Source: Actinomycetota bacterium (GTDB lineage Bacteria; Actinomycetota; CALGFH01). From it: DNA of 64,000 nucleotides. The position numbers were made by a program, and so were the translations under genes. The notes beneath the pieces are model-generated. The model made no database searches, was not told the origin of the DNA, and was given only the letters and a program-made list of their open reading frames with translations. The DNA lies in the NCBI GenBank assembly GCA_035535495.1, contig DATLQA010000029.1, positions 7,447-71,446 of the forward strand, read 5' to 3'. Shown here piece by piece: positions 1,873-25,207 of this stretch (position 1 is its first letter; each line of letters starts with the position of its first letter).

Positions 1873-4800
1873 ATGACCGCCCGGCCACCCGCCCCGGTCC
1901 GCAAGACCGTCACCATCGTGTTCAGCGACGTGGTCGGCTCGACCCCGCTCGGCGAGCTGCTCGACCCCGAGTCCCTCCGCGAGGTGGTCACCGGCTACTA
2001 CCAGCAGGTGGCCACGGTGCTCGAGCGGCACGGCGGCAGGGTGTCGAAGTTCATCGGCGACGCTGTCCTGGCTGTGTTCGGCGTGCCGTGGATGCACGAG
2101 GACGACGCCTTGCGGGCGGTGCGCGCCGCCAGCGAGCTGGGGCCGTCCCTCGACCAGCTCAACGCCGACCTGGAGGCGGCGTGGGGCCTGCGCATCCTGC
2201 TGCGGACCGGGGTCAACACCGGCGAGGTGGTGGTCGGCGACGACCTCTACGGCCAGGACGTGACCGTCGGCGACGCGGTCAACCTGGCGGCCAGGCTCGA
2301 GCAGGCGGCCGAGCCGGGCGAGGTCCTCCTCGGCGAGTCCACCCACCGGCTGGTGCGCGACGCGGTCGAGGCCGACCCGCTCCCGCCGCTCGCCGTGAAG
2401 GGCAAGGCGCAGCCGGTGGGTGCCTGGCGGCTGCGGGCGGTCCGCCCCGACGTCCCTGGCGGCGCCCGCCGGGCGGAGGCGCCCCTTGTCGGTCGCGGGC
2501 CGCAGTGGACCCGGCTCACCGAAGCGTTCGAGCGCTGCGTCGCCGACCGCGCCTGCTCCCAGGTGACCCTGGTGGGAGCCGCCGGGGTCGGCAAGTCACG
2601 GCTCGCCGCCGAGTTCGTCGCCTCGGTCGCGGACCGGGCGACCGTGCTGCGGGGCCGCTGCCTGTCCTACGGCGACGGCATCACCTTCTGGCCGGTGGCC
2701 GAGGTCCTGCGGCAGGCCGCCGGGATCACCGGGGGCGACCCTCCGGCGGCCGCCCAGGCCAAGCTGGCGGAGCTGGTCGTCGGCGAGGAGCGGGCCGAGC
2801 GGGTCGCCGAGCTGGCCGGCGGTGTCCTCCGCGTGGCCGGCGAGGCCGGCCAGCTCGAGGAGACGTTCTGGGCGATCCGCCGCGTCCTGGAGGTGGCCGC
2901 TGGCAGCCGGCCGCTGGTGGTCGTGCTCGACGACCTCCACTGGGCCGAGCCGACCCTCCTCGATCTCGTCGAGCACGTCGCCAGCTGGTCACGCGGCCGG
3001 CCGATCCTGCTGCTCTGCCTCAGCCGTCCAGACCTGATCGAGCAGCGGCCCGCATGGGGAGCCGGCGCGGTCGACGCCCGCCTGGTGCAGCTCGACCCCC
3101 TGCCGGAGGACCAAGGCCTGCTCCTGCTCGACGAGCTGCTCGGCGTGTCGGCGCTGGACGGCGCCACCCGGCAGCGCATCGTCCGCACCGCCGAGGGCAA
3201 CCCGCTGTTCATCGAGGAGCTCGTGCAGATGCTGGTGGACGAGGGCCATCTCCACCGCGAGCAGGGCCGCTGGGTCCCCACCGGCGACCTGTCCACCCTC
3301 AAGATCCCGCTTTCGATCGCCACGCTGCTGCTCGCCCGGCTCGACCGTCTCGAAGCTGCCGAGCGCGCGGTGGTCGACCGAGCGGCGGTCATCGGGAAGG
3401 AGTTCTCCGCGGTCCAGGTCACCGAGCTGGCCCCGCCGCCGCCGCCCGAAGAGGTGGAGGCGAGCCTGGCGGCCCTGGTGCTCAAGGCGCTGGTCCGGCT
3501 GGAGCCGGCGGTGGCGTCCGGACGTGGCCGCTTCGCCTTCCGGCACCAGCTGGTGCGGGACGTCGCGTATGAAGCGACCTCCAAGCGCCTCCGCGCCGAG
3601 CTGCACGAGCGCTTCGCCGCCTGGCTGGAATCCGCGGCCAGCGACCGCCTTCCCGAGGTCCAGGAGGTGCTCGGCTACCACCTGGAGCATGCCTACCGCG
3701 CGCTGGCCGCGCTGGGCGTGCCGGGCGAGCGGGGCCGGCGCCTGGCCAGGCGTGCCAGCGCCCATCTCGGCGCCGCCGGGCGGCGGGCCGCCGCCGGCGG
3801 CGACATGCCGGCCGCCGCCAGCCTCCTCGAACGGGCTGTCGCGCTGCTGCCGGCCGGCGACGGTGAGCGGCTCGCGCTCCTTCCCGAGCTGGGCGAGGCT
3901 CTCGGCGCCACCGGCGAGCTGGCCAGGGTCGAGGCGCTGCTCGCCGAGGGCCTGGAGCTGGCCACCGCCGCCCAGGACGAGCGGCTCGCCGCCCACCTGA
4001 GCCTGCAACGCTGGCGCTGGCAGCTGTTCACCAGCCCCGACGCCCAGGCGGAGGTGGCCAGGCAGGAGGCGGAGCAGTTCGTGGTCGTCCTGGAACGGCA
4101 CGGCGACCACCGCGGCCTGGCGCAGGCGTGGCGCCTGGTCGCGCTGGTGCACGCCTTCCGGAACCGCTTCTCCGACGAGCTGGAGGCGTTGACGCGCGGC
4201 CTCCGCCACGCCGAGCTGGCGGGCGACCGGCGCCTGGGCGCCGCGCTGAACGGCATGGTCAGCGCCGCCCTGCTGTACGGGCCCACACCGGTCGCCGAGG
4301 CGGTCGCCAGAGCCGAGCGCGTCCTGGACGACGCCCGCGGCAGCGGCGACCTGCTGGGAGAGGCGGATGCCCTGTTCGACCTCGGCCAGCTCGACGCCCG
4401 CCGTGGCGACCTCGCCGCCGCGCGTGCCCACCTGGCCGAGAGCGCGGCGACCTTCGAGCAGTTCGGGCTGGCGCTCACCCAGGCCCGCGTGCTGATGGAG
4501 GCGGGAGCCAACGAGCTCCTGGCCGACGACCCTGCCGCCGCCGAGCGGGAACTGCTCGGCGTCTACCGTGCCCTTGAGCGCATGGGCGACAGCGGGAGCC
4601 GCTCGACGGTGGCGGCCTGGCTCGCCGAGGCGGCCTGGCGGCTCGGTCGCGACGACCGGGCCGAAGACCATGCCGGGCAGAGCGAGCGGCTGGCCTCGCC
4701 GACCGACGTCTTCACCCAGGTCGTCTGGCGCGGCGTCCTCGCCAAGGTCCGGTCGCGCCAGGGCCGCCTGGCGGACGCGGAGCGGCTCGCCGAGGAGGCG

Positions 4801-7898: not shown

Positions 7899-8231
7899 AT
7901 GGCGTTCGAGAACGACCTTCGGGTGCTGGGCTTCCGCCTGGCGCAGGACAAGCGCGACGGCACCCGCACCTACGCGCTGGCCCGCAACCGCTTCCTCACC
8001 TACTGGCTGCACCTCCCGGCCGACAACGGACCGGCGTTGTTCACCTGGGAGTTCGCCATCGGCGAGTACATGGACGAATACGGGTTGCAGATCGGCACCA
8101 ACGAGCCGCTCAACCAGTTCCTCTTCCCGCAGACCGACACCGAGCTCGCCCAGGACCTGTCAGCCCTGGTCAAGGCGTTGGAGCGCACCGAGACGATGTT
8201 CGCCGGCATGAACTTCGGTCACCAGGGCTGA
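7899..8231 (+). CDS. Conserved hypothetical protein (110 aa)
   Basis: It starts at ATG, has strong GC3 codon bias and runs divergent from the PASTA kinase. No motif was recognised. Confidence 0.6.
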   Translation: MAFENDLRVLGFRLAQDKRDGTRTYALARNRFLTYWLHLPADNGPALFTWEFAIGEYMDEYGLQIGTNEPLNQFLFPQTDTELAQDLSALVKALERTETMFAGMNFGHQG

Positions 8232-8427: not shown

Positions 8428-10308
8428 TCAGGGCCCCAGCTGGTGCAGTGACTTGCGGACCCGGTCGGCGATGCCGGCCGCGTCCAGCCCCAGCTCGGCC
8501 AGGAGCGCGTCGCGCTTGCCGTGCGGCAGGAACTGGTCGGGGATGCCGAGGCGGACCAGCGGGGTGTCCACCTTCTCGTCCGCCAGCACCTCGGCGACCG
8601 CCGCGCCGAAGCCGCCGGCCAGGACGTTGTCCTCCACCGTGGCGACCAGGCGGTGCGCGGCGGCGAACGAGCCGAGCCGCGAGTCGAGCGGCTTGACCCA
8701 GCGGGGGTCGACCAAGGTCACGCTGACGCCGTCCTGCCGCAGCAGCCGGGCCGCCTCCTCGCAGGTCTCGGCGAGCTTGCCGAGACCGAGCAGCAGCACG
8801 TCCTCGCCCCGCGAGCGGACCTGGAAGGCGCCGAGCTTGAGCCTGCGCGCCGGGCCGGAGACCGCCGGCCGCGTGGTGGTGTCCTTGGGGAAGCGGATCG
8901 CGAACGGCCCGGCGGTGTGGGCCAGCGCGGTGGCCAGGGCGCGCCGCAGCTCGTTGCCGTCGCGGGGCGAGGCGATCACCAGGTTGGGGATCTGGCGCAG
9001 GTAGGTGACGTCGTAGACACCGTGGTGGGAGGGGCCGTCCTCGCCGGTGATGCCGGAGCGGTCGATGGCGAAGACGACCGGCAGCCGGTGCAGGGCGACG
9101 TCCATCATCACCTGGTCGAAGGCGCGCTGCAGGAAGGTCGAGTAGATGGCGCAGACCGGGCGGAGCCCGGCCATGGCCATGCCGGCGGCCATGGTGACGG
9201 CGACCTGCTCGGCGATGCCGACGTCGAAGACCCGCTCAGGGAACTCCTGGGCCATCAGGGTGAGCTTGGTCGGGCCGAGCATGGCGGCGGAGATGGCCAC
9301 CAGCTCGGGGTGGTGGCGCGCCTCATCCAGCAGGGCGTCGCCGAACACGTCGGTGAACTTCCCCGTCATGGCCGGCTCGGAGGAGGGCACCGGGCCGGTC
9401 TCCGGGTCGAATGTGCCGGCGGAGTGGAGCTTGTCCTCGTCGTGGTCCTCGGCCGGCTTGTAGCCGCGGCCCTTCTGGGTGACCACGTGCAGCAGCACCG
9501 GGCCGGGGACGCGCTTGACGTGGTCGAGGGCGCGGTCGAGTGCCTGGAGGTCGTGCCCGTCGACCGGACCGGCGTACTGCCAGCCGAGGTCCTCGAAGAC
9601 CACTCTCGGCGCCACCAGCGCCTTGGCGCCCTCCTTGACCCGCTTGGCCGCCTCCACCATGCCCTCGCCGACCAGCGGCACGCGGCCGAGGGTCTCCTCC
9701 ACGCCGCGCTTGAGCGTCTCGTAGCCCGGGTGCAGGCGGAGCGGGGCCAGGTGCCCGGAGAGGCCGCCGACGGTCGGCTGGTAGGAACGGCCGTTGTCGT
9801 TGAGCACCACCAGCATGTCCGGCTTGCGGTGCCCGGCGAGGTTGAGCGCCTCCAGCGCCACGCCGCCGGTCAGCGAGCCGTCGCCGACCACCGCGACCAC
9901 CCGCCCCTTGCCCTGGCCGGCGCGGCGGGCCTCGGCGAGGCCGAGGGCGTAGCCGAGCGCGGTCGAGGCGTGGGAGTTCTCGATGACGTCGTGGGGGCTC
10001 TCCGCCCGCGACGGGTAGCCGGAGAGGCCGCCCATGGAGCGGAGGGTGGCGAACTCGGCCTGGCGGCCGGTGAGGATCTTGTGGACGTAGGCCTGGTGGC
10101 CGGTGTCCCAGACGATGCGGTCGGTGGGGGAATCGATGGCCCGGTGCAGCGCGATGGTGAGCTCCACCACGCCGAGGTTCGGACCCAGATGGCCACCGCG
10201 TGCCGCCACCGCGCGGACGAGGAAACCGCGGATCTCCGCGGCCAGCTCGACCAGCTCGGCGTTGGAGAGCTGACGGAGATCGGCGGGTGATCGGATGGCT
10301 TCCAGCAT
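8428..10308 (-). CDS. dxs: 1-deoxy-D-xylulose-5-phosphate synthase
   Basis: Transketolase-like motifs are present (GHLGPNLGVVELTIALH, TPP-binding GDGSLTGG, the pyrimidine domain and the C-terminal transketolase domain). The ATG at 10308 is MLEAIRSP, preceded by GAAGG. Confidence 0.95.
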   Translation of the reverse strand: MLEAIRSPADLRQLSNAELVELAAEIRGFLVRAVAARGGHLGPNLGVVELTIALHRAIDSPTDRIVWDTGHQAYVHKILTGRQAEFATLRSMGGLSGYPSRAESPHDVIENSHASTALGYALGLAEARRAGQGKGRVVAVVGDGSLTGGVALEALNLAGHRKPDMLVVLNDNGRSYQPTVGGLSGHLAPLRLHPGYETLKRGVEETLGRVPLVGEGMVEAAKRVKEGAKALVAPRVVFEDLGWQYAGPVDGHDLQALDRALDHVKRVPGPVLLHVVTQKGRGYKPAEDHDEDKLHSAGTFDPETGPVPSSEPAMTGKFTDVFGDALLDEARHHPELVAISAAMLGPTKLTLMAQEFPERVFDVGIAEQVAVTMAAGMAMAGLRPVCAIYSTFLQRAFDQVMMDVALHRLPVVFAIDRSGITGEDGPSHHGVYDVTYLRQIPNLVIASPRDGNELRRALATALAHTAGPFAIRFPKDTTTRPAVSGPARRLKLGAFQVRSRGEDVLLLGLGKLAETCEEAARLLRQDGVSVTLVDPRWVKPLDSRLGSFAAAHRLVATVEDNVLAGGFGAAVAEVLADEKVDTPLVRLGIPDQFLPHGKRDALLAELGLDAAGIADRVRKSLHQLGP

Positions 10309-19714: not shown

Positions 19715-20803
19715 TCAGGCGCTCCGGTCGGTGACGTGGTCGGCGAGCGCCGCCAGGGCGGCCCTGGCCCGCTCGTCGATGCCGTCGGCGGCGGCGAGGG
19801 CCACCTTGGCCTGGCCGAGCAGCTCGGCGATGCGGGCCTCGGTGTCGGCCAGGGCACCGGAGCCGGCGATCACCTGGCGGACCGCCTCCACGTCGTCCTC
19901 GGTCAGCTTGGGCTCGCCGAGCGCGGCCTCGAGCAGGCGCCGCCCCGCCTGGTCGCCGCGCTCCCTGGCCTTGAGCACCAGGTAGGTCTCCTTGCCCTCG
20001 CGCAGGTCGTCGCCTGCCGGCTTGCCGGTCACCTGGGGGCTGCCGAACACCCCGAGCACGTCGTCGCGGAGCTGGAACGCCTCGCCGAGCGGCAGGCCGT
20101 ATGCCGAGTACCACCGCGCCAGCGCCGGCGGCCCACCGGCGATCGCCAGGCCGAGGTGGAGCGGCCGTTCGATGGTGTACTTGCCGGACTTGTAGGTCAG
20201 CACGCGGCGCACGGCCGCCTCGTCCGGCGAGCCCCGCCTGGCCTCCAGCAGGTCGAGGTACTGCCCGCCCATCAGCTCCGAGCGCAGCAGGTTGAACACC
20301 TTGAGGGCGGCGGCCAGCCGGTCGTCCGGCAGGCCGGCGTCGGCCAGGGCGGCGTCGGCCCAGGTGAAGGCGAGGTCGCCCATGAGCACCGCCGCGCCGG
20401 TGCCGAACGCGGCCGGGTCGCCCCGCCAGGTCCAGCTCCGGTGCATGCCGGCGAACTCCACGTGCATCGCCGGGCGGCCCCGGCGGACCTCCGAGCCGTC
20501 CATGATGTCGTCGTGGATCAGGGCGCAGACGTGCAGCAGCTCCACCGAGCAGGCGGCCCGCACCACCGCGTCGGCCCGCGGGCCGTCCGGCGGCCCGCCG
20601 GCGCCGCGGTACCCCCACCAGACGAACGCGGGCCGCAGCCGCTTGCCACCTTCCAGCACGAACCCGCGGAGCGCGCCGGCGACCACCTCGAGGTCGCCCT
20701 CCAAGAAGGCGAGCGCGGCCAGCTCGCGGTCGAGCAGCGCGACCAGGGCCCGGTCGACGCGGGCGCGGAGGTCCTCCAGGTCGACCGGGTCGATCTCACT
20801 CAC
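19715..20803 (-). CDS. Polyprenyl (geranylgeranyl/farnesyl) diphosphate synthase
   Basis: FARM (LIHDDIMD) and SARM (FQLRDDVLG) motifs are present. The GTG start follows GGGAAGG. The 1794-aa track ORF is an artefactual read-through antisense to the helicase-like gene. Confidence 0.85.
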   Translation of the reverse strand: MSEIDPVDLEDLRARVDRALVALLDRELAALAFLEGDLEVVAGALRGFVLEGGKRLRPAFVWWGYRGAGGPPDGPRADAVVRAACSVELLHVCALIHDDIMDGSEVRRGRPAMHVEFAGMHRSWTWRGDPAAFGTGAAVLMGDLAFTWADAALADAGLPDDRLAAALKVFNLLRSELMGGQYLDLLEARRGSPDEAAVRRVLTYKSGKYTIERPLHLGLAIAGGPPALARWYSAYGLPLGEAFQLRDDVLGVFGSPQVTGKPAGDDLREGKETYLVLKARERGDQAGRRLLEAALGEPKLTEDDVEAVRQVIAGSGALADTEARIAELLGQAKVALAAADGIDERARAALAALADHVTDRSA

Positions 20804-20890
20804 CTTCCCACCGTGCGGCCATGACCGCTTCGATCTCCGGTTCCGGCATGGTAGACGGATGCACCACACGCCGTCCCCGGAGCGTCCCGA

Positions 20891-21769
20891 TTGGCCATCG
20901 CCTCCCGCCTCACCGCGATCTCTCCCGCCGTCCGGCTCACCAGCAGCGCCCTCTACCGTACCGCCAGCGGCGTGGTGGCCGGTCGGGACGGTGCCGTGCT
21001 GCTGGTCGACCCGGGTGTACTCCCCGACGAGCTGTCGGGCCTCGCCGCCGAGCTGACCGCCGCCGGGCTGCGCCCCGCCGCCGGCGTGGCGACCCACGCG
21101 CACTGGGACCACGTCCTGTGGGCCGAAGGCCTCGGCGCCGCGCCGCGCTTCGCCACCAGGGCGACCGTGGAGCTGGTCGCCGCGCGCCGCCGCGACCTGG
21201 TCGAACGGCCCCTGGCCGAGTGGGGCGACGAGCACTACGTCCGCTTCGACACCGAGCTGGCCGGGCGGCTCGAGGCGGCCCCGGCCGACGGCACCATCCC
21301 GTGGCCAGGCCCGCCGGTCCGGCTGGTGCCCGCGGGCGGGCACTGCCCGGGGCACGCGGCCGTGCTGGTCGAGCACGACAGGGTCCTGTTCGCCGGCGAC
21401 ATGGTGAGCGAGCTCGAGGTCCCCCTGCCCGAGTGGGAGCTGGAGCCAGACCCGCTCGGCGCCTACCGCCGTGGACTGGACGCGCTCGCGGGCCTGGCCG
21501 GCGTGGCCCTGGTGGTGCCCGGCCACGGCAGCCCAGGTGACGCCGCCGAGCTGCGGCGGCGCGTCGACGCCGACCGGCGCTACCTGGACGCGCTGGAGGC
21601 CGCGGTGGCACCGGTGGCCGCCGCCGGCGGCGATGCCGAGGCCGCGGTGGCCGCGGCCGCCGGCGTCGACGACCCGCGCCTGGCCGGTTGGCCGCCGATG
21701 GCCGGCGCCCACGCCGGCAACGCCCGTGGCCTGCTCGCCTCGCTGACCCTGGCCGGGGGGCGACGGTAG
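20891..21769 (+). CDS. MBL-fold metallo-hydrolase
   Basis: THAHWDH is the HxHxDH motif. Downstream His and Asp residues are present. The start is TTG. Confidence 0.8.
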   Translation: MAIASRLTAISPAVRLTSSALYRTASGVVAGRDGAVLLVDPGVLPDELSGLAAELTAAGLRPAAGVATHAHWDHVLWAEGLGAAPRFATRATVELVAARRRDLVERPLAEWGDEHYVRFDTELAGRLEAAPADGTIPWPGPPVRLVPAGGHCPGHAAVLVEHDRVLFAGDMVSELEVPLPEWELEPDPLGAYRRGLDALAGLAGVALVVPGHGSPGDAAELRRRVDADRRYLDALEAAVAPVAAAGGDAEAAVAAAAGVDDPRLAGWPPMAGAHAGNARGLLASLTLAGGRR

Positions 21770-22030
21770 CGGCCCCGGGGCGGGGCCCGGTCGCCTGGCC
21801 TCCCACATATGCGTGCGATATACCTCCGCCCGCCGCATTGCTCGGTTATCGTTGCAAGCAGGACAAGACGGCGATCGGCGACAAGGGCGCTCACGAGATT
21901 GTCGACCACCAGCGAGCCTGGCGATCAGCAACCGGGTGTCCAGCGCCCGGCGCCGCGTCGAGCCATCTCGCGACCGCCGGTGCGGCAGCGCTCCTACACC
22001 CCTCCCGCGCCGCCGGCCTGGCTCCGCGAG

Positions 22031-25000
22031 GTGGTCGCGGCCGTCAAGGCAGAGCTGGCCGCCGCGCCGGCCGCGGCCGTCGCCGTCGACCTCGGTCCCG
22101 CCCTGCCGGACCTCGGGCCGGCGCTCGACAGCCGCTACCGGATCGACCTGCGCGGCCGCCGGGTCGGCCTGGACGCCCTGCGCGACCTCGCCCTGGTCCC
22201 GGCCGGCGACCCCGAGCGTCGCCTGCCGGTCGTCGAGGTGGTGGCCTACGCCGGCGACACCCTCACCGTCCTGGCCCCCGCCGCCCACGACGACCTCCAC
22301 CTGGTCGCCACCGTCGACCAGGCGGCCCCGCTGCGCGCCCTGGTCGCCGCGTTGGAGGAGGTGCGGGAGCCAGGCCTGGCCGAGCGGTTCGACACCCGTG
22401 TCCTCGACCGGCCACCCGCCACCACGCCGCGGCGTGCCGGGCTGAGCGCGGAGGAGACGGCCGCCTGGGCGGCGAGCTGCGCGCCAGGCTTCAACGTGGT
22501 CTGGGCGCCACCCGGGACGGACGCCGCCCGAGTGGTGGCGGAGGTGGCCGCCGAGCTGGCCGGGGCCGGGCGGAGCGTGCTGGTGGTGTCGGTCGCCGGC
22601 GCCACGGTGGACCGCGTCGCCATGGAGACGCTGCGGCTGCTCGACGGCGGCGAACCCGGCCAGGTCGTCCGCGTCGGCCCGCCGTGCCTGGCGGAGGTGG
22701 CCGACCACCCCTTCCTGCGCCTGGAGCGTGCCAGCGAGCGTCACGCCGAGGCGGAGCTGGCACGCCTCGCCGAGATCGAGCGGCGCGCCGCCGCCCTCCG
22801 CGCCGAGCCGGAGCAGCTCCTGCTGGAGCGCGCCGAGCGCCTGCTGGCAGGGTTCGACCAGGCCGGCTACGAGCACGCCCGCCGCCTGGTCGACAACGCC
22901 GACGCCCTCGACGAGCTGGAGCGCCTCCTCGGGGAGCAGGAACGGGAGCTGCAGGCCGCCCGCGACGAGCGCGAGCAGGCGGGGACCGCGTTCGACCAGG
23001 CCGCCGCGGCGGTGGCCGAGGTCGCCACGGCGCGCGCCGCCTACCAGGCGATCGACCAGCTGGAGCAGCAGCTCGCCTCGGAGCAGGGGAAGCTCGACCA
23101 CGACCGGGAGCAGATCCGCCAGCTCATGCAGCGGCTGGACGAGGCCCGCGGCGCGGTCGCCGACTACGGGCGCCTCTCCCGGCTGCGCCGGGCCACCCAC
23201 CCAGGCGGGGGCCAGCTCCGGGCCGCCCAGCGCGAGGCCGAGGCCGCCCTGCTGCCCGCATGGGAGCAGGTGGTCGAGCGCGAGCGCAAGACCGCCGAGA
23301 TGCGCCGCGGCATCGAAGCGGAGGAGCGGCGCGCCGGCACGGTCACCCGTGACGAGATCGACTACCGCGACCAGGCCCGTGGCCAGGCGCGCGAGCGGCT
23401 GGAGGCCGCCAGCGCGGCGGTGCAGGAGCAGGAGCGGGCCCAGCGGACGCTCCGCCGCGACCTGGAGCGGGCACGCCAGGCACCCGGCCCGGCCGAGGCC
23501 GACCGCCGCCTGGTCGGCGCGGCCGAGGACCAGGATCTGCCGGAGCTGGCCGCCCGCCTCGACGAGCTCCGGGCCGCCGCCAGGCCGGGCACCGTGGAGC
23601 TGGCCGCCCTGGCCGCCGAGCGCGGGCGGCTGACCGCGACCACCGCCGCGCTCGGGCCCGACACCGTGGCCAAGGCCGCGGTGGTGGCCACCACCCTCGA
23701 CCGGATGGCCGCCGATCCGGCGGTCCTGCGGTGCCGCTACGACCACGTGGTGGTGGACGAGGCAGCGGCGGCCCTGCCGCCGTCGGTGGTGCTGGCCGCG
23801 ACCCTGGCCAGCCGCGGCGTCACCCTGGTCGGCGACCCGTTGCAGAGCGGGCCGGCCAGCGTCCAGGAGACCTCCAAGGTGCTGGCGGTGTCGCGCTGGC
23901 TGCTGCGGGACAGCCTCAGCGTGCTCGGGCTGGACCGTGCCGAGCAGCTGGCCAGCCGGCAGGGGTGCACCACGCTGGCGCCGGTCCGGCGGCTCGGCCC
24001 CGACACCGCCGAGCTGGCCAACCGGGTCGCCTACCAGGGCCACCTCCGCCCCCCTGGCGAGGTCGACCGGCCCTGCCCGCCCGACGACGACCTCGGCGAG
24101 CTGGTCCTGGTCGACGTGGCCCGCTACGGGGACCTGGCCCGCGCCCGGGCTGGCGTGCGCAGCTCGATGCGCGAGTGGTGGCCGGTCGGCGCGCTGCTGG
24201 CCACCGCCATCGCCCGCCATCACGACGCGCCTGGCAAGAGCGCGGCGCTGATGGCCCCGTACGCCGCGCAGCTCCGGCTCACCGAGGCGGCCCTGGTCGA
24301 CGCCGGGGTGGGGGAGCGGGTCCAGGCGGGACCGCCGTCCCGCTTCCAGGGTCAGAGCGTCCCCGTGGCCGTCCTCGACCTGGTCGAGGACGGCCGCGAG
24401 CCCGGCTGGCTGGCCCGTGGCCGGATCGACGGCACCCGCCACGAGCTGCGCGGCCTGCGCCTGTTCGACACCGGCACGACCCGGGCCGCACGCACCTACC
24501 TGCTGGCCGACCGGGGCGCGGTCGAGCGGGCCGAGCGCGGTCCGTTGCGCCACGTCCGCGACCTGTGGCGCGAGGGGCGGATCACCGTGGTGGGCGCGGG
24601 GCGGTTCCTGCCGGTGGAGCGGCGCAGCGAGGGGCACGAGCCCGCCGCGCAGGCGCCGGCCCTGCTCGCGTTGGAGCGCGCCGCGTTCGACGACCGCCTG
24701 GAGGCCGAGCTGGCCGCCGCGACCGACGAGGTGTGGGTGTGGAGCCCGCAACTCGCCGCCCGGCCCACCCCGGTGCTCGCCTGGCTCCGGGACGCGGCCG
24801 GCCGGGGCTGCCGGGTGACCGTGTTCGTCAAGCCGCCACACGAGCACCGGCCCAACCACGAGCGGCGGCTGGCCGGCCTCCGCGATGCCGGCCTGGAGGT
24901 GGTGGCCGTCTACGGCCTGGCCGAGCGGCTGGTGGTGATCGACCGGCGGCGCTGCTTCCTCGGCAACGTGAGCGTGCTGGCCAGCTCGCGCGATCGCGAC

Positions 25001-25207
25001 GAGGGCATGGTGGTGGTGGAGGGCGCGCGGCTGGCGGGAGCCCTGCTCGGGCTCGAGCAGGCAGAGGCGTTCGCCGCCGCGCCGGCCTGCCCACGGCACC
25101 AGGCGGCGCGCTGCTACGCCCAGTGCTACCGGCGCGGACGGGACCAGGGCTGGTTCTGGACCTGCCCGTGGTGCGGCGAGCGCGAGCCGATCGCGTTCAC
25201 CGACTGA
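22031..25207 (+). CDS. Upf1-like SF1 helicase-family protein with a coiled-coil insert, fused to a PLD-like domain and a C-terminal Cys4 zinc ribbon. The catalytic motifs are degenerate
   Basis: Motif I reads VVWAPPGTDAARVV..SVAGATVD (GKT replaced by DAA). Motif II is VVVDEAAAA, motif III LVGDPLQ, motif V SRFQGQSVPVAVL and motif VI FDTGTTRAAR. The PLD-like segment is AGLEVVAVYGLAERLVVIDRRRCFLGNVS (HxK replaced by AxR). The zinc ribbon is CPRH..C..C..CPWCG. The track ORF opens at 21809, but 21809-21990 is GC-poorer and looks like leader. The GTG at 22031 is the likely start. Confidence 0.8.
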   Translation: MVAAVKAELAAAPAAAVAVDLGPALPDLGPALDSRYRIDLRGRRVGLDALRDLALVPAGDPERRLPVVEVVAYAGDTLTVLAPAAHDDLHLVATVDQAAPLRALVAALEEVREPGLAERFDTRVLDRPPATTPRRAGLSAEETAAWAASCAPGFNVVWAPPGTDAARVVAEVAAELAGAGRSVLVVSVAGATVDRVAMETLRLLDGGEPGQVVRVGPPCLAEVADHPFLRLERASERHAEAELARLAEIERRAAALRAEPEQLLLERAERLLAGFDQAGYEHARRLVDNADALDELERLLGEQERELQAARDEREQAGTAFDQAAAAVAEVATARAAYQAIDQLEQQLASEQGKLDHDREQIRQLMQRLDEARGAVADYGRLSRLRRATHPGGGQLRAAQREAEAALLPAWEQVVERERKTAEMRRGIEAEERRAGTVTRDEIDYRDQARGQARERLEAASAAVQEQERAQRTLRRDLERARQAPGPAEADRRLVGAAEDQDLPELAARLDELRAAARPGTVELAALAAERGRLTATTAALGPDTVAKAAVVATTLDRMAADPAVLRCRYDHVVVDEAAAALPPSVVLAATLASRGVTLVGDPLQSGPASVQETSKVLAVSRWLLRDSLSVLGLDRAEQLASRQGCTTLAPVRRLGPDTAELANRVAYQGHLRPPGEVDRPCPPDDDLGELVLVDVARYGDLARARAGVRSSMREWWPVGALLATAIARHHDAPGKSAALMAPYAAQLRLTEAALVDAGVGERVQAGPPSRFQGQSVPVAVLDLVEDGREPGWLARGRIDGTRHELRGLRLFDTGTTRAARTYLLADRGAVERAERGPLRHVRDLWREGRITVVGAGRFLPVERRSEGHEPAAQAPALLALERAAFDDRLEAELAAATDEVWVWSPQLAARPTPVLAWLRDAAGRGCRVTVFVKPPHEHRPNHERRLAGLRDAGLEVVAVYGLAERLVVIDRRRCFLGNVSVLASSRDRDEGMVVVEGARLAGALLGLEQAEAFAAAPACPRHQAARCYAQCYRRGRDQGWFWTCPWCGEREPIAFTD

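What the first reader, a model, noticed from the sequence alone, without database searches (positions are those of the whole stretch)
21809..25207. Catalytically dead Upf1-like helicase + PLD + zinc-ribbon giant protein (Mokosh type II-like architecture with both active sites ablated)
The domain order is an AAA_11/AAA_12 (COG1112, Upf1/DNA2-like) SF1 helicase core with a ~300-aa Glu/Arg/Ala-rich coiled-coil insert between motifs I and II. A single PLD-type domain follows, then a Cys4 zinc ribbon. Helicase motifs Ia-VI are recognisable (DEAA, VGDPLQ, FQGQSVPV, TTRAAR). However motif I reads PPGTDAA, so the P-loop Lys and Thr are lost. The PLD motif aligns as LAERLVVID-x6-GNVS against lHaKfvviD-x6-GSaN, so the catalytic His and Lys are replaced by Ala and Arg. 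An RNA-helicase (COG1112) plus PLD-nuclease pairing in one polypeptide is the published layout of type II Mokosh anti-phage proteins, and is also the piRNA Armitage/Zucchini logic. A version with both enzymatic centres inactivated has not, to my knowledge, been described. It could be a decayed defence gene, or a pseudoenzyme scaffold or decoy.
Basis: partly seen in the sequence, partly recalled or inferred. Interest (0 to 1): 0.8.

Follow-up and report, generated by a model that had tools for sequence, protein, structure and literature searches.

The report
Catalytically dead, domesticated helicase–nuclease relative
This gene encodes a large protein that keeps the shape of a bacterial anti-virus helicase–nuclease but has lost both enzyme active sites, yet natural selection has kept it at one fixed chromosomal position in a group of uncultured soil actinobacteria, so it probably works by binding rather than by catalysis.

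Summary
Window 21899..25207 (+) encodes a ~1102-aa protein (1075 aa if it starts at GTG 21980). Its domains are a beta-barrel, an Upf1-like SF1 helicase core with a ~270-aa coiled-coil insert, a PLD-fold domain and a zinc ribbon. Walker A reads GTDAA instead of GTGKT. The PLD signature reads A-E-R...GNxS instead of H-x-K...GSxN.

These losses are not private decay. All 25 orthologous loci recovered carry them, and proteins down to 55% identity retain them. 24 of the 25 have an intact in-frame ORF. dN is significantly lower than dS, including within the dead domains. All loci sit in one syntenic slot between a polyprenyl synthase and M23 peptidase/DinB.

Intact relatives are common in Streptomyces, Nocardia and related genera. 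They score as MkoC/MkoA-like and lie in defence islands.

Best reading: a Mokosh type II-like defence helicase–nuclease that lost catalysis and was fixed in the core chromosome of an uncultured soil Actinomycetota lineage. It gained clade-specific invariant motifs. Its present function is unknown, and a binding or scaffold role is inferred, not shown. I rate it a new variant of a known kind, of moderate interest.

The parts
21899..25207 (+). Coding sequence of the dead helicase–PLD–Zn-ribbon protein. TTG start gives 1102 aa; the alternative GTG start at 21980 gives 1075 aa; the TGA stop is at 25205-25207.
   Evidence: ORF. The TTG is invariant in all aligned orthologous leaders and is preceded by AAGGG. 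Six of 13 gene calls start at this TTG. Sequence upstream of it has frame-breaking 1-nt indels.
21815..21867 (+). Conserved non-coding leader. It holds a GCGATATACC box (21815-21824) and a TATCGT-GCAAG-N-GACAAG box (21847-21867), about 30-85 nt upstream of the TTG start. It is probably a promoter or operator plus the start of the 5'UTR.
   Evidence: The leader is nearly identical between orthologues whose proteins are only ~65% identical. The core TATCGTGGCAAG..AGACAAG is invariant across both subclades. There is no Rfam hit, no sigma-70 consensus and no supported RNA fold.
22079..22315 (+). N-terminal beta-barrel, in the position of Upf1 domain 1B (residues 91-169 of the 1132-aa frame).
   Evidence: AF2 strands E34-112 in model numbering, pLDDT 74-94. 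The region is collinear with the active relatives.
22448..22858 (+). First half of RecA1. The Q-motif is changed (Q216E). The Walker A remnant APPGTDAAR lies at 22505-22531 (G238D, K239A, T240A). Motif Ia is degenerate.
   Evidence: D238 and E216 are invariant in the dead clade, whereas G and Q are 97-100% conserved in 194 active relatives.
22859..23674 (+). Insert of ~270 aa rich in Ala, Arg, Glu and Leu, forming an antiparallel coiled coil between motifs I and II. The clade-invariant LLPAWE motif lies at 23249-23266, near the tip.
   Evidence: AF2 predicts helices of ~50 residues (H294-347, H349-397, H410-452, H457-499, H520-556). There are coiled-coil-type hits to LmuB, JetC and SbcC and to tropomyosin. 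This is the fastest-evolving region.
23675..23929 (+). Second half of RecA1, with Walker B (D650 E651 at 23756-23761) and motif III (GDPLQSGP at 23831-23854).
   Evidence: The Walker B D/E residues vary among orthologues (AE, DQ, VE, LE), which indicates no catalytic constraint.
23930..24634 (+). RecA2 domain with degenerate motifs IV (PVRRL), V (GPPSRFQGQS) and VI (DTGTTRAAR).
   Evidence: Pfam does not detect AAA_12. The domain is aligned to AAA_12-positive relatives and is folded in the AF2 model, which matches Upf1 and Senataxin. Lost residues are listed.
24662..25075 (+). PLD-fold domain with a dead signature, LAERLVVID-x6-GNVS-x2-A, at 24917-24982 (H1038A, K1040R, S1053N, N1055S, S1058A). 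A clade-specific invariant loop KPPHEHRPN lies at 24830-24856.
   Evidence: PADLOC MkoC and DrmC hits, Zucchini by profile, and Zucchini, Nuc and TrmBL2 by Foldseek. Motif states are the same in all 25 loci. This domain has the lowest dN/dS in the protein.
25088..25204 (+). C-terminal zinc ribbon: C1094-x2-H1097-x4-C1102 ... C1119-x2-C1122.
   Evidence: All five ligand positions are conserved in all orthologues. Beta strands are predicted in the model. Active relatives mostly have CxxC at the first knuckle, and the CxxH variant is shared with intact P0147 and P0152.

Best explanation
The gene encodes a selectively maintained pseudoenzyme. It descends from a Mokosh type II-like anti-phage helicase–nuclease: an Upf1-like SF1 helicase with a coiled-coil insert, a PLD nuclease domain and a zinc ribbon. 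The ATP site, several nucleic-acid-translocation motifs and the PLD catalytic residues were all lost.

The gene then became fixed as a single-copy, monocistronic gene at one core-chromosome position in an uncultured soil Actinomycetota lineage.

Shown here: the fold is retained, catalytic residues are lost systematically, the ORF is under purifying selection, synteny is fixed, expression signals are conserved, and the active relatives have a defence-island origin.

Inferred: the protein now acts without ATP hydrolysis or phosphodiester cleavage, as a binding or scaffolding module. The preserved barrel, RecA-like and PLD-like surfaces and the zinc ribbon would hold a ligand, either nucleic acid or protein. 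The long coiled coil would act as a spacer or dimerisation arm. The newly fixed motifs (LLPAWE near the coil tip, and the KPPHEHRPN loop plus R1040 in the former PLD site) would form the new interaction sites.
For: Fold and homology:
- Supported.
- Full-length collinear homology to an intact ~1095-aa family.

Loss of catalytic residues:
- Of 120 positions at least 90% conserved in 194 intact relatives, 81 are kept.
- The 39 that changed concentrate on the Q-motif, Walker A, motifs Ia, IV, V and VI, and all five PLD signature residues.
- The same dead states occur in all 25 loci.
- The clade is monophyletic and nested among intact proteins.

Maintenance by selection:
- Full-length intact ORFs in all complete loci except one.
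- At least 15 independent indel regions, all in frame, P <= 7e-8 under neutrality.
- dN < dS: whole gene p = 3e-18, PLD domain p ~ 1e-4 to 1e-5, RecA1b+RecA2 region p ~ 1e-4 to 1e-7.
- dN/dS lies within the range of neighbouring genes in the same genome pairs.
- 94 positions are invariant only in this clade.
- The leader is conserved.

Context:
- Universal synteny: polyprenyl synthase, sometimes MBL, this gene, M23, DinB, ECH, TgpA/DUF58/MoxR.
- Intact relatives sit beside BREX, GmrSD and DarTG; beside PhD/PIN with a DUF4011 helicase and an IS element; and beside an MmeI-type RM enzyme with SNF2 and Imm5.
- Both sites are experimentally required for Mokosh defence.
Against: - No biochemical or expression data exist.
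- The gene is among the faster-evolving genes in its neighbourhood (dN about 0.25, against 0.09-0.17 for DinB, DUF58 and TgpA). Its coiled coil is close to neutral at larger distances. Constraint is therefore moderate.
- One locus, L027, is frameshifted.
- The gene has no operon partner, so context gives no functional clue.
- Canonical nucleic-acid-binding motifs Ia, IV and V are degenerate, which weakens a simple 'it still binds RNA in the helicase channel' model.
- One subclade keeps Lys and Thr in Walker A (GTDKT), so residual nucleotide binding there is not excluded.
- The one S. venezuelae intact relative (L005) is not in an obvious defence island.
Confidence: 0.6

Rival explanations
1. 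The protein is an immune-related non-catalytic partner. It still works in phage defence as a sensor, adaptor, regulator or decoy. For example, it could soak up phage inhibitors aimed at an intact paralogue, or sense a phage product and signal to another effector encoded elsewhere in the genome.
For: Its ancestry lies in a defence family. Its relatively fast evolution, especially in the coiled coil, is typical of proteins in host-parasite conflict. Catalytic sites have been lost repeatedly elsewhere in the family, which suggests the dead form may have a recurring use.
Against: The gene sits in a fixed core locus with housekeeping neighbours in all 24 loci with informative flanks, not in a variable island. 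No intact paralogue or effector is found in the 64-kb window or in the fetched flanks. No phage protein with this architecture is found.
Confidence: 0.2
2. The protein is a cryptic enzyme. It retains or has gained catalysis with non-canonical residues. One option is a metal-dependent site built from the invariant His-Glu-His of the KPPHEHRPN loop and R1040. Another is nucleotide binding by the altered P-loop acting as a switch.
For: The H1011-E1012-H1013-R1014...N1016 loop and R1040 are invariant only in this clade, and they lie in the most constrained domain. One subclade keeps Lys and Thr in Walker A (GTDKT) and keeps Walker B DE.
Against: PLD chemistry needs the His nucleophile, which is Ala or Val in every member. 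An invariant Asp replaces the P-loop Gly. The Q-motif Gln is Glu. Walker B varies freely (AE, DQ, VE, LE). Motif V and VI residues are lost. I could not inspect coordinates to see whether the HEH loop faces the old active site.
Confidence: 0.12
3. The gene is a slowly decaying relic of a defence gene with no present function. Its long ORF persists only because stop codons are rare at 75-78% GC.
For: GC is very high, and a spurious 1794-aa antisense ORF overlaps the gene. Apparent dN/dS is fairly high, 0.38-0.70. One locus is frameshifted (L027). Other family members look like sporadic decay.
Against: The protein stays homologous and in frame over its full length in 24 of 25 loci, despite at least 15 indel regions. 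dN is significantly lower than dS in each domain at short distances. The dN/dS values are comparable with those of real neighbouring genes. 94 positions are invariant only in this clade. The leader is conserved. The gene is retained at one locus down to 55% protein identity.
Confidence: 0.06

Closest known systems
Mokosh type II (MkoC; E. coli YjhR-type fused helicase–PLD anti-phage protein)
   Same: One polypeptide with an N-terminal Upf1-like (COG1112) SF1 helicase and a C-terminal PLD-family domain. Intact relatives of the window protein hit MkoC and MkoA profiles at 1e-36 to 1e-46 and lie in defence islands.
   Different: The window protein lacks the ATP-binding site and the PLD active site, both of which are required for Mokosh defence. 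It matches MkoC only weakly, at 1.2e-7 over 116 aa. It carries a ~270-aa coiled-coil insert, an N-terminal barrel and a zinc ribbon. It sits in a fixed core locus rather than a defence island.
Actinobacterial ~1095-aa 'AAA domain-containing / PLD phosphodiesterase domain-containing' proteins (e.g. Streptomyces sp. MP131-18 P0014, S. venezuelae DEJ49_23760, Nocardia xishanensis P0049; uncharacterised)
   Same: Collinear over the full length: barrel, RecA1, coiled coil, RecA1, RecA2, PLD, zinc ribbon. Identity is 27-35%. This is the family from which the dead clade arose.
   Different: 205 of 267 surveyed relatives keep GxGKT and HxK. They occupy variable contexts, often defence islands. The window clade has lost both centres and has a fixed syntenic position.
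Upf1 / Senataxin (Sen1) / IGHMBP2 / DNA2 SF1B helicases
   Same: These are the best structural and profile matches for the helicase core. The barrel (1B) plus an insert within RecA1 (the 1C 'prong' position) is their hallmark layout.
   Different: They are active ATP-dependent 5'-3' translocases. Here the Q-motif, Walker A and motifs Ia, IV, V and VI are degenerate, and the prong is replaced by a long coiled coil.
Zucchini/PLD6 and Nuc (single-HKD PLD nucleases); TrmBL2 C-terminal PLD-like domain
   Same: The C-terminal domain has the same fold (Foldseek TM 0.61 to 4ggk and 1byr; TrmBL2 5bpi and 5bpd also hit). Profile hit to 4ggj. From my own knowledge, not tested here: TrmB-family C-terminal domains are non-catalytic members of the PLD-like fold, which would be a precedent for a binding role.
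   Different: Zucchini and Nuc use HxK(x)4D(x)6GSxN. Here only the Asp and Gly remain.
Nuclease-dead, co-opted defence proteins (e.g. Cas12k in CRISPR-associated transposons); an analogy from general knowledge only
   Same: A defence nuclease scaffold kept for binding after catalysis was lost.
   Different: There is no guide RNA, no transposon association and no demonstrated function here. The families are unrelated.

Membership tests
Mokosh type II (MkoC) | Upf1-like COG1112 SF1 helicase domain in the N-terminal part | tested here: met
   AAA_11 at 56.6 bits against a cutoff of 27. Upf1, IGHMBP2 and Sen1 hit by profile and by Foldseek at E 1e-17 to 1e-21. Met at the level of fold only.
Mokosh type II (MkoC) | PLD-family nuclease domain at the C-terminus of the same polypeptide | tested here: met
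   MkoC and DrmC PLD-region hits, Zucchini by profile and Zucchini and Nuc by Foldseek. Met at the level of fold only.
Mokosh type II (MkoC) | Functional helicase ATP-binding site (its mutation abolishes defence; Millman 2022) | tested here: not met
   Walker A is GTDAA. D238 is invariant and the Lys is absent in most orthologues. The Q-motif is Q to E. The requirement is documented.
Mokosh type II (MkoC) | Functional PLD HxK active site (its mutation abolishes defence) | tested here: not met
   A/V-E-R replaces H-x-K, and GNxS/T/N replaces GSxN, in all 25 loci. The requirement is documented.
Mokosh type II (MkoC) | Significant full-length match to the MkoC profile | tested here: inconclusive
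   The window protein gives MkoC 1.2e-7 on residues 960-1075 only and MkoA 4.5e-11. Intact relatives give 1e-38 to 1e-46, but the best stretch covers only model positions ~858-1125 of 1136. PADLOC system-level rules were not run.
Mokosh type II (MkoC) | Defence-island or variable genomic context | tested here: not met
   The same core-genome slot is occupied in all 24 loci with informative flanks.
Mokosh type II (MkoC) | Protects against phage | not testable with these tools
   Needs a phage challenge of a host expressing the gene.
Upf1-like SF1B helicases (AAA_11 + AAA_12) | Walker A GxGK[TS], Walker B DExx, and motifs Ia-VI competent for ATP-driven translocation | tested here: not met
   Walker A, the Q-motif and motifs Ia, IV, V and VI have lost residues that are at least 90% conserved in active relatives. 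AAA_12 falls below Pfam detection.
PLD superfamily (HKD enzymes) | HxK(x)4D(x)6GSxN catalytic signature | tested here: not met
   Only D1045 and G1052 remain. The changes are H1038A, K1040R, S1053N and N1055S.
PLD superfamily (HKD enzymes) | PLD alpha/beta fold | tested here: met
   Foldseek hits to 4ggk and 1byr at TM 0.61, probability 1.00.
Actinobacterial helicase–coiled-coil–PLD–Zn-ribbon family (P0014-like, uncharacterised) | Full-length collinear homology including the coiled-coil insert and C-terminal zinc ribbon | tested here: met
   P0014 at E 1.3e-74. Alignments A1 and A3. The profile recovers P0134 at 902 bits and 1277 proteins at E below 1e-30. The NJ tree nests the clade inside the family.

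The most novel reading that the evidence does not exclude
A Mokosh-like anti-phage helicase–nuclease was exapted into a non-catalytic housekeeping protein in a soil actinobacterial lineage. New ligand-binding sites (the His-Glu-His loop in the former PLD pocket, and a conserved motif near the tip of a ~15-nm coiled coil) replaced catalysis. This would be a bacterial parallel to the proposed co-option of Mokosh-type modules into the animal piRNA pathway. Loss of both centres has also recurred in Pseudonocardia, Amycolatopsis and Streptosporangiaceae. That would suggest the dead form is a recurrent functional state of this defence family rather than mere decay.
Probability: 0.35. Interest if true: 0.7.

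Novelty: new variant of a known kind. Interest (0 to 1): 0.5.

Why it matters
Anti-phage systems are usually studied as active enzymes in mobile islands. This is a clade-wide case in which a helicase–nuclease defence protein lost both catalytic centres, yet was kept under selection at a fixed core locus with its own conserved expression signals.

If a function is found, it would show how defence proteins are recycled into non-enzymatic cellular roles. It would also provide a natural 'dead' scaffold for separating the binding and sensing functions of Mokosh-like proteins from their catalysis.

There is a practical point too. Domain-based annotation or defence-finder tools may mislabel such genes as active helicases or as Mokosh systems.

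Tried and rejected
- **ATG 21809 as the start (1132 aa).** Rejected. The upstream block is conserved at the nucleotide level but has frame-breaking 1-nt indels, and most gene calls start at the TTG or GTG.
- **Leader as a known RNA.** No Rfam family matched in E-value mode, and the whole window gave no match at gathering thresholds. RNAalifold gave a weak fold with an unfavourable covariation term. There was no sigma-70 consensus and no terminator.
- **Known housekeeping helicase.** NCBIfam gave only a far sub-threshold IGHMBP2 hit (25 bits against a cutoff of 349). All named relatives are 'AAA domain-containing' or hypothetical proteins.
- **Intact paralogue nearby.** None was found in the window or the syntenic loci.
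- **Phage-encoded counterpart or decoy.** BFVD returned only generic SF1 helicases, mostly from eukaryotic RNA viruses.
- **Species-genome scan.** It yielded a single orthologue, in an Actinomycetes MAG, plus an unrelated weak Kitasatospora hit.
- **Taxonomic placement via neighbour genes.** It gave only 'Actinomycetota bacterium' MAGs and metagenomes.
- **DNA for P0002's contig.** Unavailable.
- **1794-aa antisense ORF 19715..25099.** A high-GC artefact. Only its 3' part is real, the polyprenyl synthase.
- **Raw dN/dS at face value.** Misleading at this GC content, so I calibrated it on the neighbouring genes.
- **Literature searches.** No description of a doubly inactivated Mokosh-like protein was found. 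This was a limited search, not proof of absence.

Full report
**1. What is there**

The window is ~75% GC throughout.

The start codon is probably not the ATG at 21809. Between the upstream MBL-hydrolase gene (stop at 21769) and the coding region lies a block that is conserved at the nucleotide level. It carries 1-nt indels that break the frame. An invariant TTG at 21899, preceded by AAGGG, is present in every orthologous leader aligned, and six of the thirteen database gene calls begin at it. A GTG at 21980 is the other candidate. The protein is therefore 1102 aa (or 1075 aa).

**2. Domain architecture**

- Pfam finds AAA_11 at 56.6 bits (cutoff 27), stretched over residues 225-679. This is the signature of an insertion inside RecA1. 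Pfam finds no AAA_12 or PLDc domain.
- PADLOC gives weak MkoA (4.5e-11) and MkoC (1.2e-7, residues 960-1075) hits, a DrmC hit, and coiled-coil noise from LmuB and JetC.
- NCBIfam offers nothing above threshold.
- A 76-sequence family profile hits Upf1/NAM7, IGHMBP2, DNA2, Senataxin/Sen1 and Aquarius. For profile positions 946-1033 it hits mouse Zucchini/PLD6.
- An AlphaFold2 model is confident (mean pLDDT 83.7, pTM 0.72). It shows an N-terminal beta-barrel, RecA1, helices of roughly 50 residues forming a long antiparallel coiled coil, the rest of RecA1, RecA2, an alpha/beta domain and a small beta-ribbon.
- Foldseek against the PDB returns Senataxin, Sen1, Upf1, IGHMBP2, Aquarius, DNA2 and ZNFX1 for the helicase core (E 1e-12 to 1e-21). 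For the C-terminal domain it returns Zucchini (4ggk) and Nuc (1byr), each with TM 0.61, and the PLD-like domain of TrmBL2.

That test fails, so the PLD assignment stands.

**3. The active sites**

Translation confirms APPGTDAAR at residues 233-241 and LAERLVVID-x6-GNVS from residue 1037. Aligned intact relatives read GPPGTGKT and HQKIVVID-x6-GSLN.

I compared 194 intact relatives with the dead clade. Of 120 positions at least 90% conserved in the intact proteins, 81 are retained. The 39 that changed include:
- Q216E (Q-motif)
- G233A, G238D, K239A (Walker A)
- T263, N264 (motif Ia)
- Q726, R728, F729 (motif IV)
- T842, H844, E850 (motif V)
- N887, V888 (motif VI)
- H1038A, K1040R, S1053N, N1055S, S1058A (PLD)

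The Walker B D/E residues drift among orthologues (AE, DQ, VE, LE). So the fold-determining residues are kept while the chemistry is gone.

The zinc ribbon survives as C-x2-H-x4-C...C-x2-C, with all ligands conserved.

**4. Is it private decay or a conserved state?**

- The word-indexed search found 13 orthologues at 55-100% identity, nearly all from metagenomes, plus one distant intact Streptomyces protein.
- An exhaustive HMMER scan of 1.84 billion representatives found 1277 relatives at E below 1e-30. The dead clade collapses into a single 50%-identity cluster.
- A scan of 185,579 species genomes found it only in one Actinomycetes MAG.
- A metagenome scan added 18 loci.

All 25 loci carry G[TS]D[AKP][AT] and [AV]ER...GN. 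All also share clade-specific invariant motifs, KP[PG]HEHRPN and L[LV]PAWE. An NJ tree makes the clade monophyletic and nests it among intact proteins (P0134, P0147, P0152). Those intact proteins already share its CxxH zinc knuckle and QNGP motif III.

**5. Selection**

Every complete locus has a single ORF spanning the whole profile. The exception is L027, which is frameshifted.

High GC makes the absence of stop codons uninformative, as the spurious 1794-aa antisense ORF shows. I therefore counted indels instead. At least 15 independent gapped regions among 16 distinct orthologues are all in frame (P <= 7e-8 under neutrality).

Nei-Gojobori dN/dS is 0.38-0.70. That looks high, but syntenic neighbour genes in the same genome pairs give 0.09-0.72. 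So dS is compressed by GC3 bias, and the gene ranks with the faster-evolving real genes, M23 and TgpA.

dN < dS is significant for:
- the whole gene (p = 3e-18)
- the dead PLD domain (p ~ 1e-4 to 1e-5)
- the RecA1b+RecA2 region (p ~ 1e-4 to 1e-7)

The coiled coil approaches neutrality at larger distances. In addition, 94 positions are invariant only in the dead clade. A decaying pseudogene is very unlikely.

**6. Genomic context**

In all 24 loci with informative flanks the gene lies in the same slot. The order is polyprenyl (geranylgeranyl) diphosphate synthase (-), sometimes an MBL-fold hydrolase (+), this gene (+), Peptidase_M23 (-), DinB/IMS polymerase (+), enoyl-CoA hydratase, DUF3040, then TgpA/DUF58/MoxR.

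The gene is flanked by a divergent gene on one side and a convergent gene on the other, so it is monocistronic. Its leader contains a box, TATCGTGGCAAG-N-AGACAAG, that is invariant across both subclades. This box is kept even where a SARP-type regulator gene has been inserted upstream. That argues for conserved expression signals.

Intact relatives sit in very different places:
- Nocardia xishanensis: between BREX (PglY, PglZ, BrxD), GmrSD, an SLFN-like helicase and DarTG.
- Streptomyces sp. MP131-18: beside PhD/PIN, a DUF4011 helicase and a transposase.
- P0134, the nearest intact relative: beside an MmeI/Eco57I-type restriction-modification enzyme, an SNF2 helicase and Imm5.
- One S. venezuelae copy is in a less obvious context.

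The intact proteins score MkoC 1e-38 to 1e-46 and MkoA 1e-36 to 1e-44.

**7. Comparison with the known**

Millman et al. define Mokosh as a COG1112 Upf1-like helicase plus a PLD nuclease, fused in type II. They report that mutating the ATP-binding site or the PLD site abolishes defence. Cury et al. link the pair to MOV10L1 and PLD6 of the piRNA pathway. A 2025 preprint finds Mokosh II to be monomeric and narrow in its phage range.

The window protein shares the fold and the ancestry. It fails four membership criteria: the ATP site, the PLD site, a strong profile match and a defence context. It is therefore 'derived from a Mokosh II-like family', not 'a Mokosh system'. I found no description of such a doubly dead, conserved branch.

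**8. Mechanism**

Shown:
- a preserved multi-domain fold
- abolished catalytic signatures
- purifying selection
- a fixed locus
- new clade-specific invariant motifs

Inferred:
- The protein acts by binding. The former PLD pocket (R1040 plus the His-Glu-His loop), the zinc ribbon and the coil-tip motif would serve as interaction sites.
- The coiled coil would act as a spacer or dimerisation arm.

What it binds is unknown. The rivals are an immune adaptor or decoy role, a cryptic non-canonical enzyme, and residual decay. They are listed with their tests in the rival-explanations section.

**9. Wider pattern**

At least eight other 50%-identity cluster representatives in the family have independently lost both motifs. 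They include proteins from Pseudonocardia humida, Amycolatopsis cihanbeyliensis and a Streptosporangiaceae MAG. They group with different intact proteins. Those look sporadic, being clusters of one or two members. The window's clade is the one case with demonstrated persistence.

**10. Verdict**

The open alternative is resolved towards a maintained pseudoenzyme. I rate it a new variant of a known kind. Interest is moderate (0.5): this is a clean natural example of a defence protein domesticated without catalysis, but it comes from an uncultured lineage and has no functional handle yet.

Noticed in passing
window 21815-21867 (also L001 ~9800-9850, L003 ~4360-4420 and others): The non-coding leader upstream of the gene is better conserved than the coding sequence. 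A box, TATCGTGGCAAG-N-AGACAAG, is invariant across both subclades, and a GCGATATACC box occurs in one subclade. There is no Rfam family, no sigma-70 consensus and no supported RNA fold. It is probably a promoter or operator for an unknown regulator.
   Followed up: partly
L003 ~4385-4430, L015, L020, L022, L024 (the GTDKT subclade): In this subclade a perfect 9-bp inverted repeat, GAAGGTGAG...CTCACCTTC, brackets the conserved TATCGTGGCAAGGTAGACAAGG box, giving a stem with a ~23-nt loop. It is absent from the window's own subclade.
   Followed up: no
window 19715-25099 (-): A 1794-aa antisense ORF overlaps the whole gene. It is an artefact of stop-codon scarcity at ~77% GC. Only its 3' part (~19715-20800) is a real gene, a type I geranylgeranyl diphosphate synthase.
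   Followed up: yes
L001 5883-10049 (-); the same position in L019 and L027: In one subclade a gene of ~1300 aa for a SARP/AfsR-like regulator (Trans_reg_C + BTAD + AAA_16) is inserted divergently between the MBL hydrolase and the dead helicase gene. The leader is nevertheless kept.
   Followed up: partly
L027 ~8030-8070: This is the only orthologous locus with a frameshift. The profile is split over two frames, at positions 1-632 and 652-1079. I could not tell whether this is an assembly error or real pseudogenisation.
   Followed up: no
P0239 (Pseudonocardia humida WP_252437864), P0242 (Amycolatopsis cihanbeyliensis WP_170220866), P0167 (Streptosporangiaceae MAG MGH3318745), P0161, P0190, P0219, P0251, P0277: These members of the same helicase–PLD family have independently lost both Walker A and HxK. 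Each groups with different intact proteins. Their genomic contexts could not be looked up with the tools allowed.
   Followed up: partly
L007 (Nocardia xishanensis BDCF01000010, 35201-58521): A dense defence island: BREX PglY/PglZ/BrxD, GmrSD, a DEAD-box helicase, the intact helicase–PLD protein, an SLFN-like helicase, DarT with an ADP-ribosylglycohydrolase, a UvrD-like helicase, and a CdiA_C toxin with WXG100 proteins.
   Followed up: no
window 21771-21787: A GC-rich hairpin, GGCCCCG-GGG-CGGGGCC, lies immediately after the MBL hydrolase stop codon. It has no T-run, so it is possibly a factor-independent terminator of the actinobacterial type, or simply chance at this GC content.
   Followed up: no
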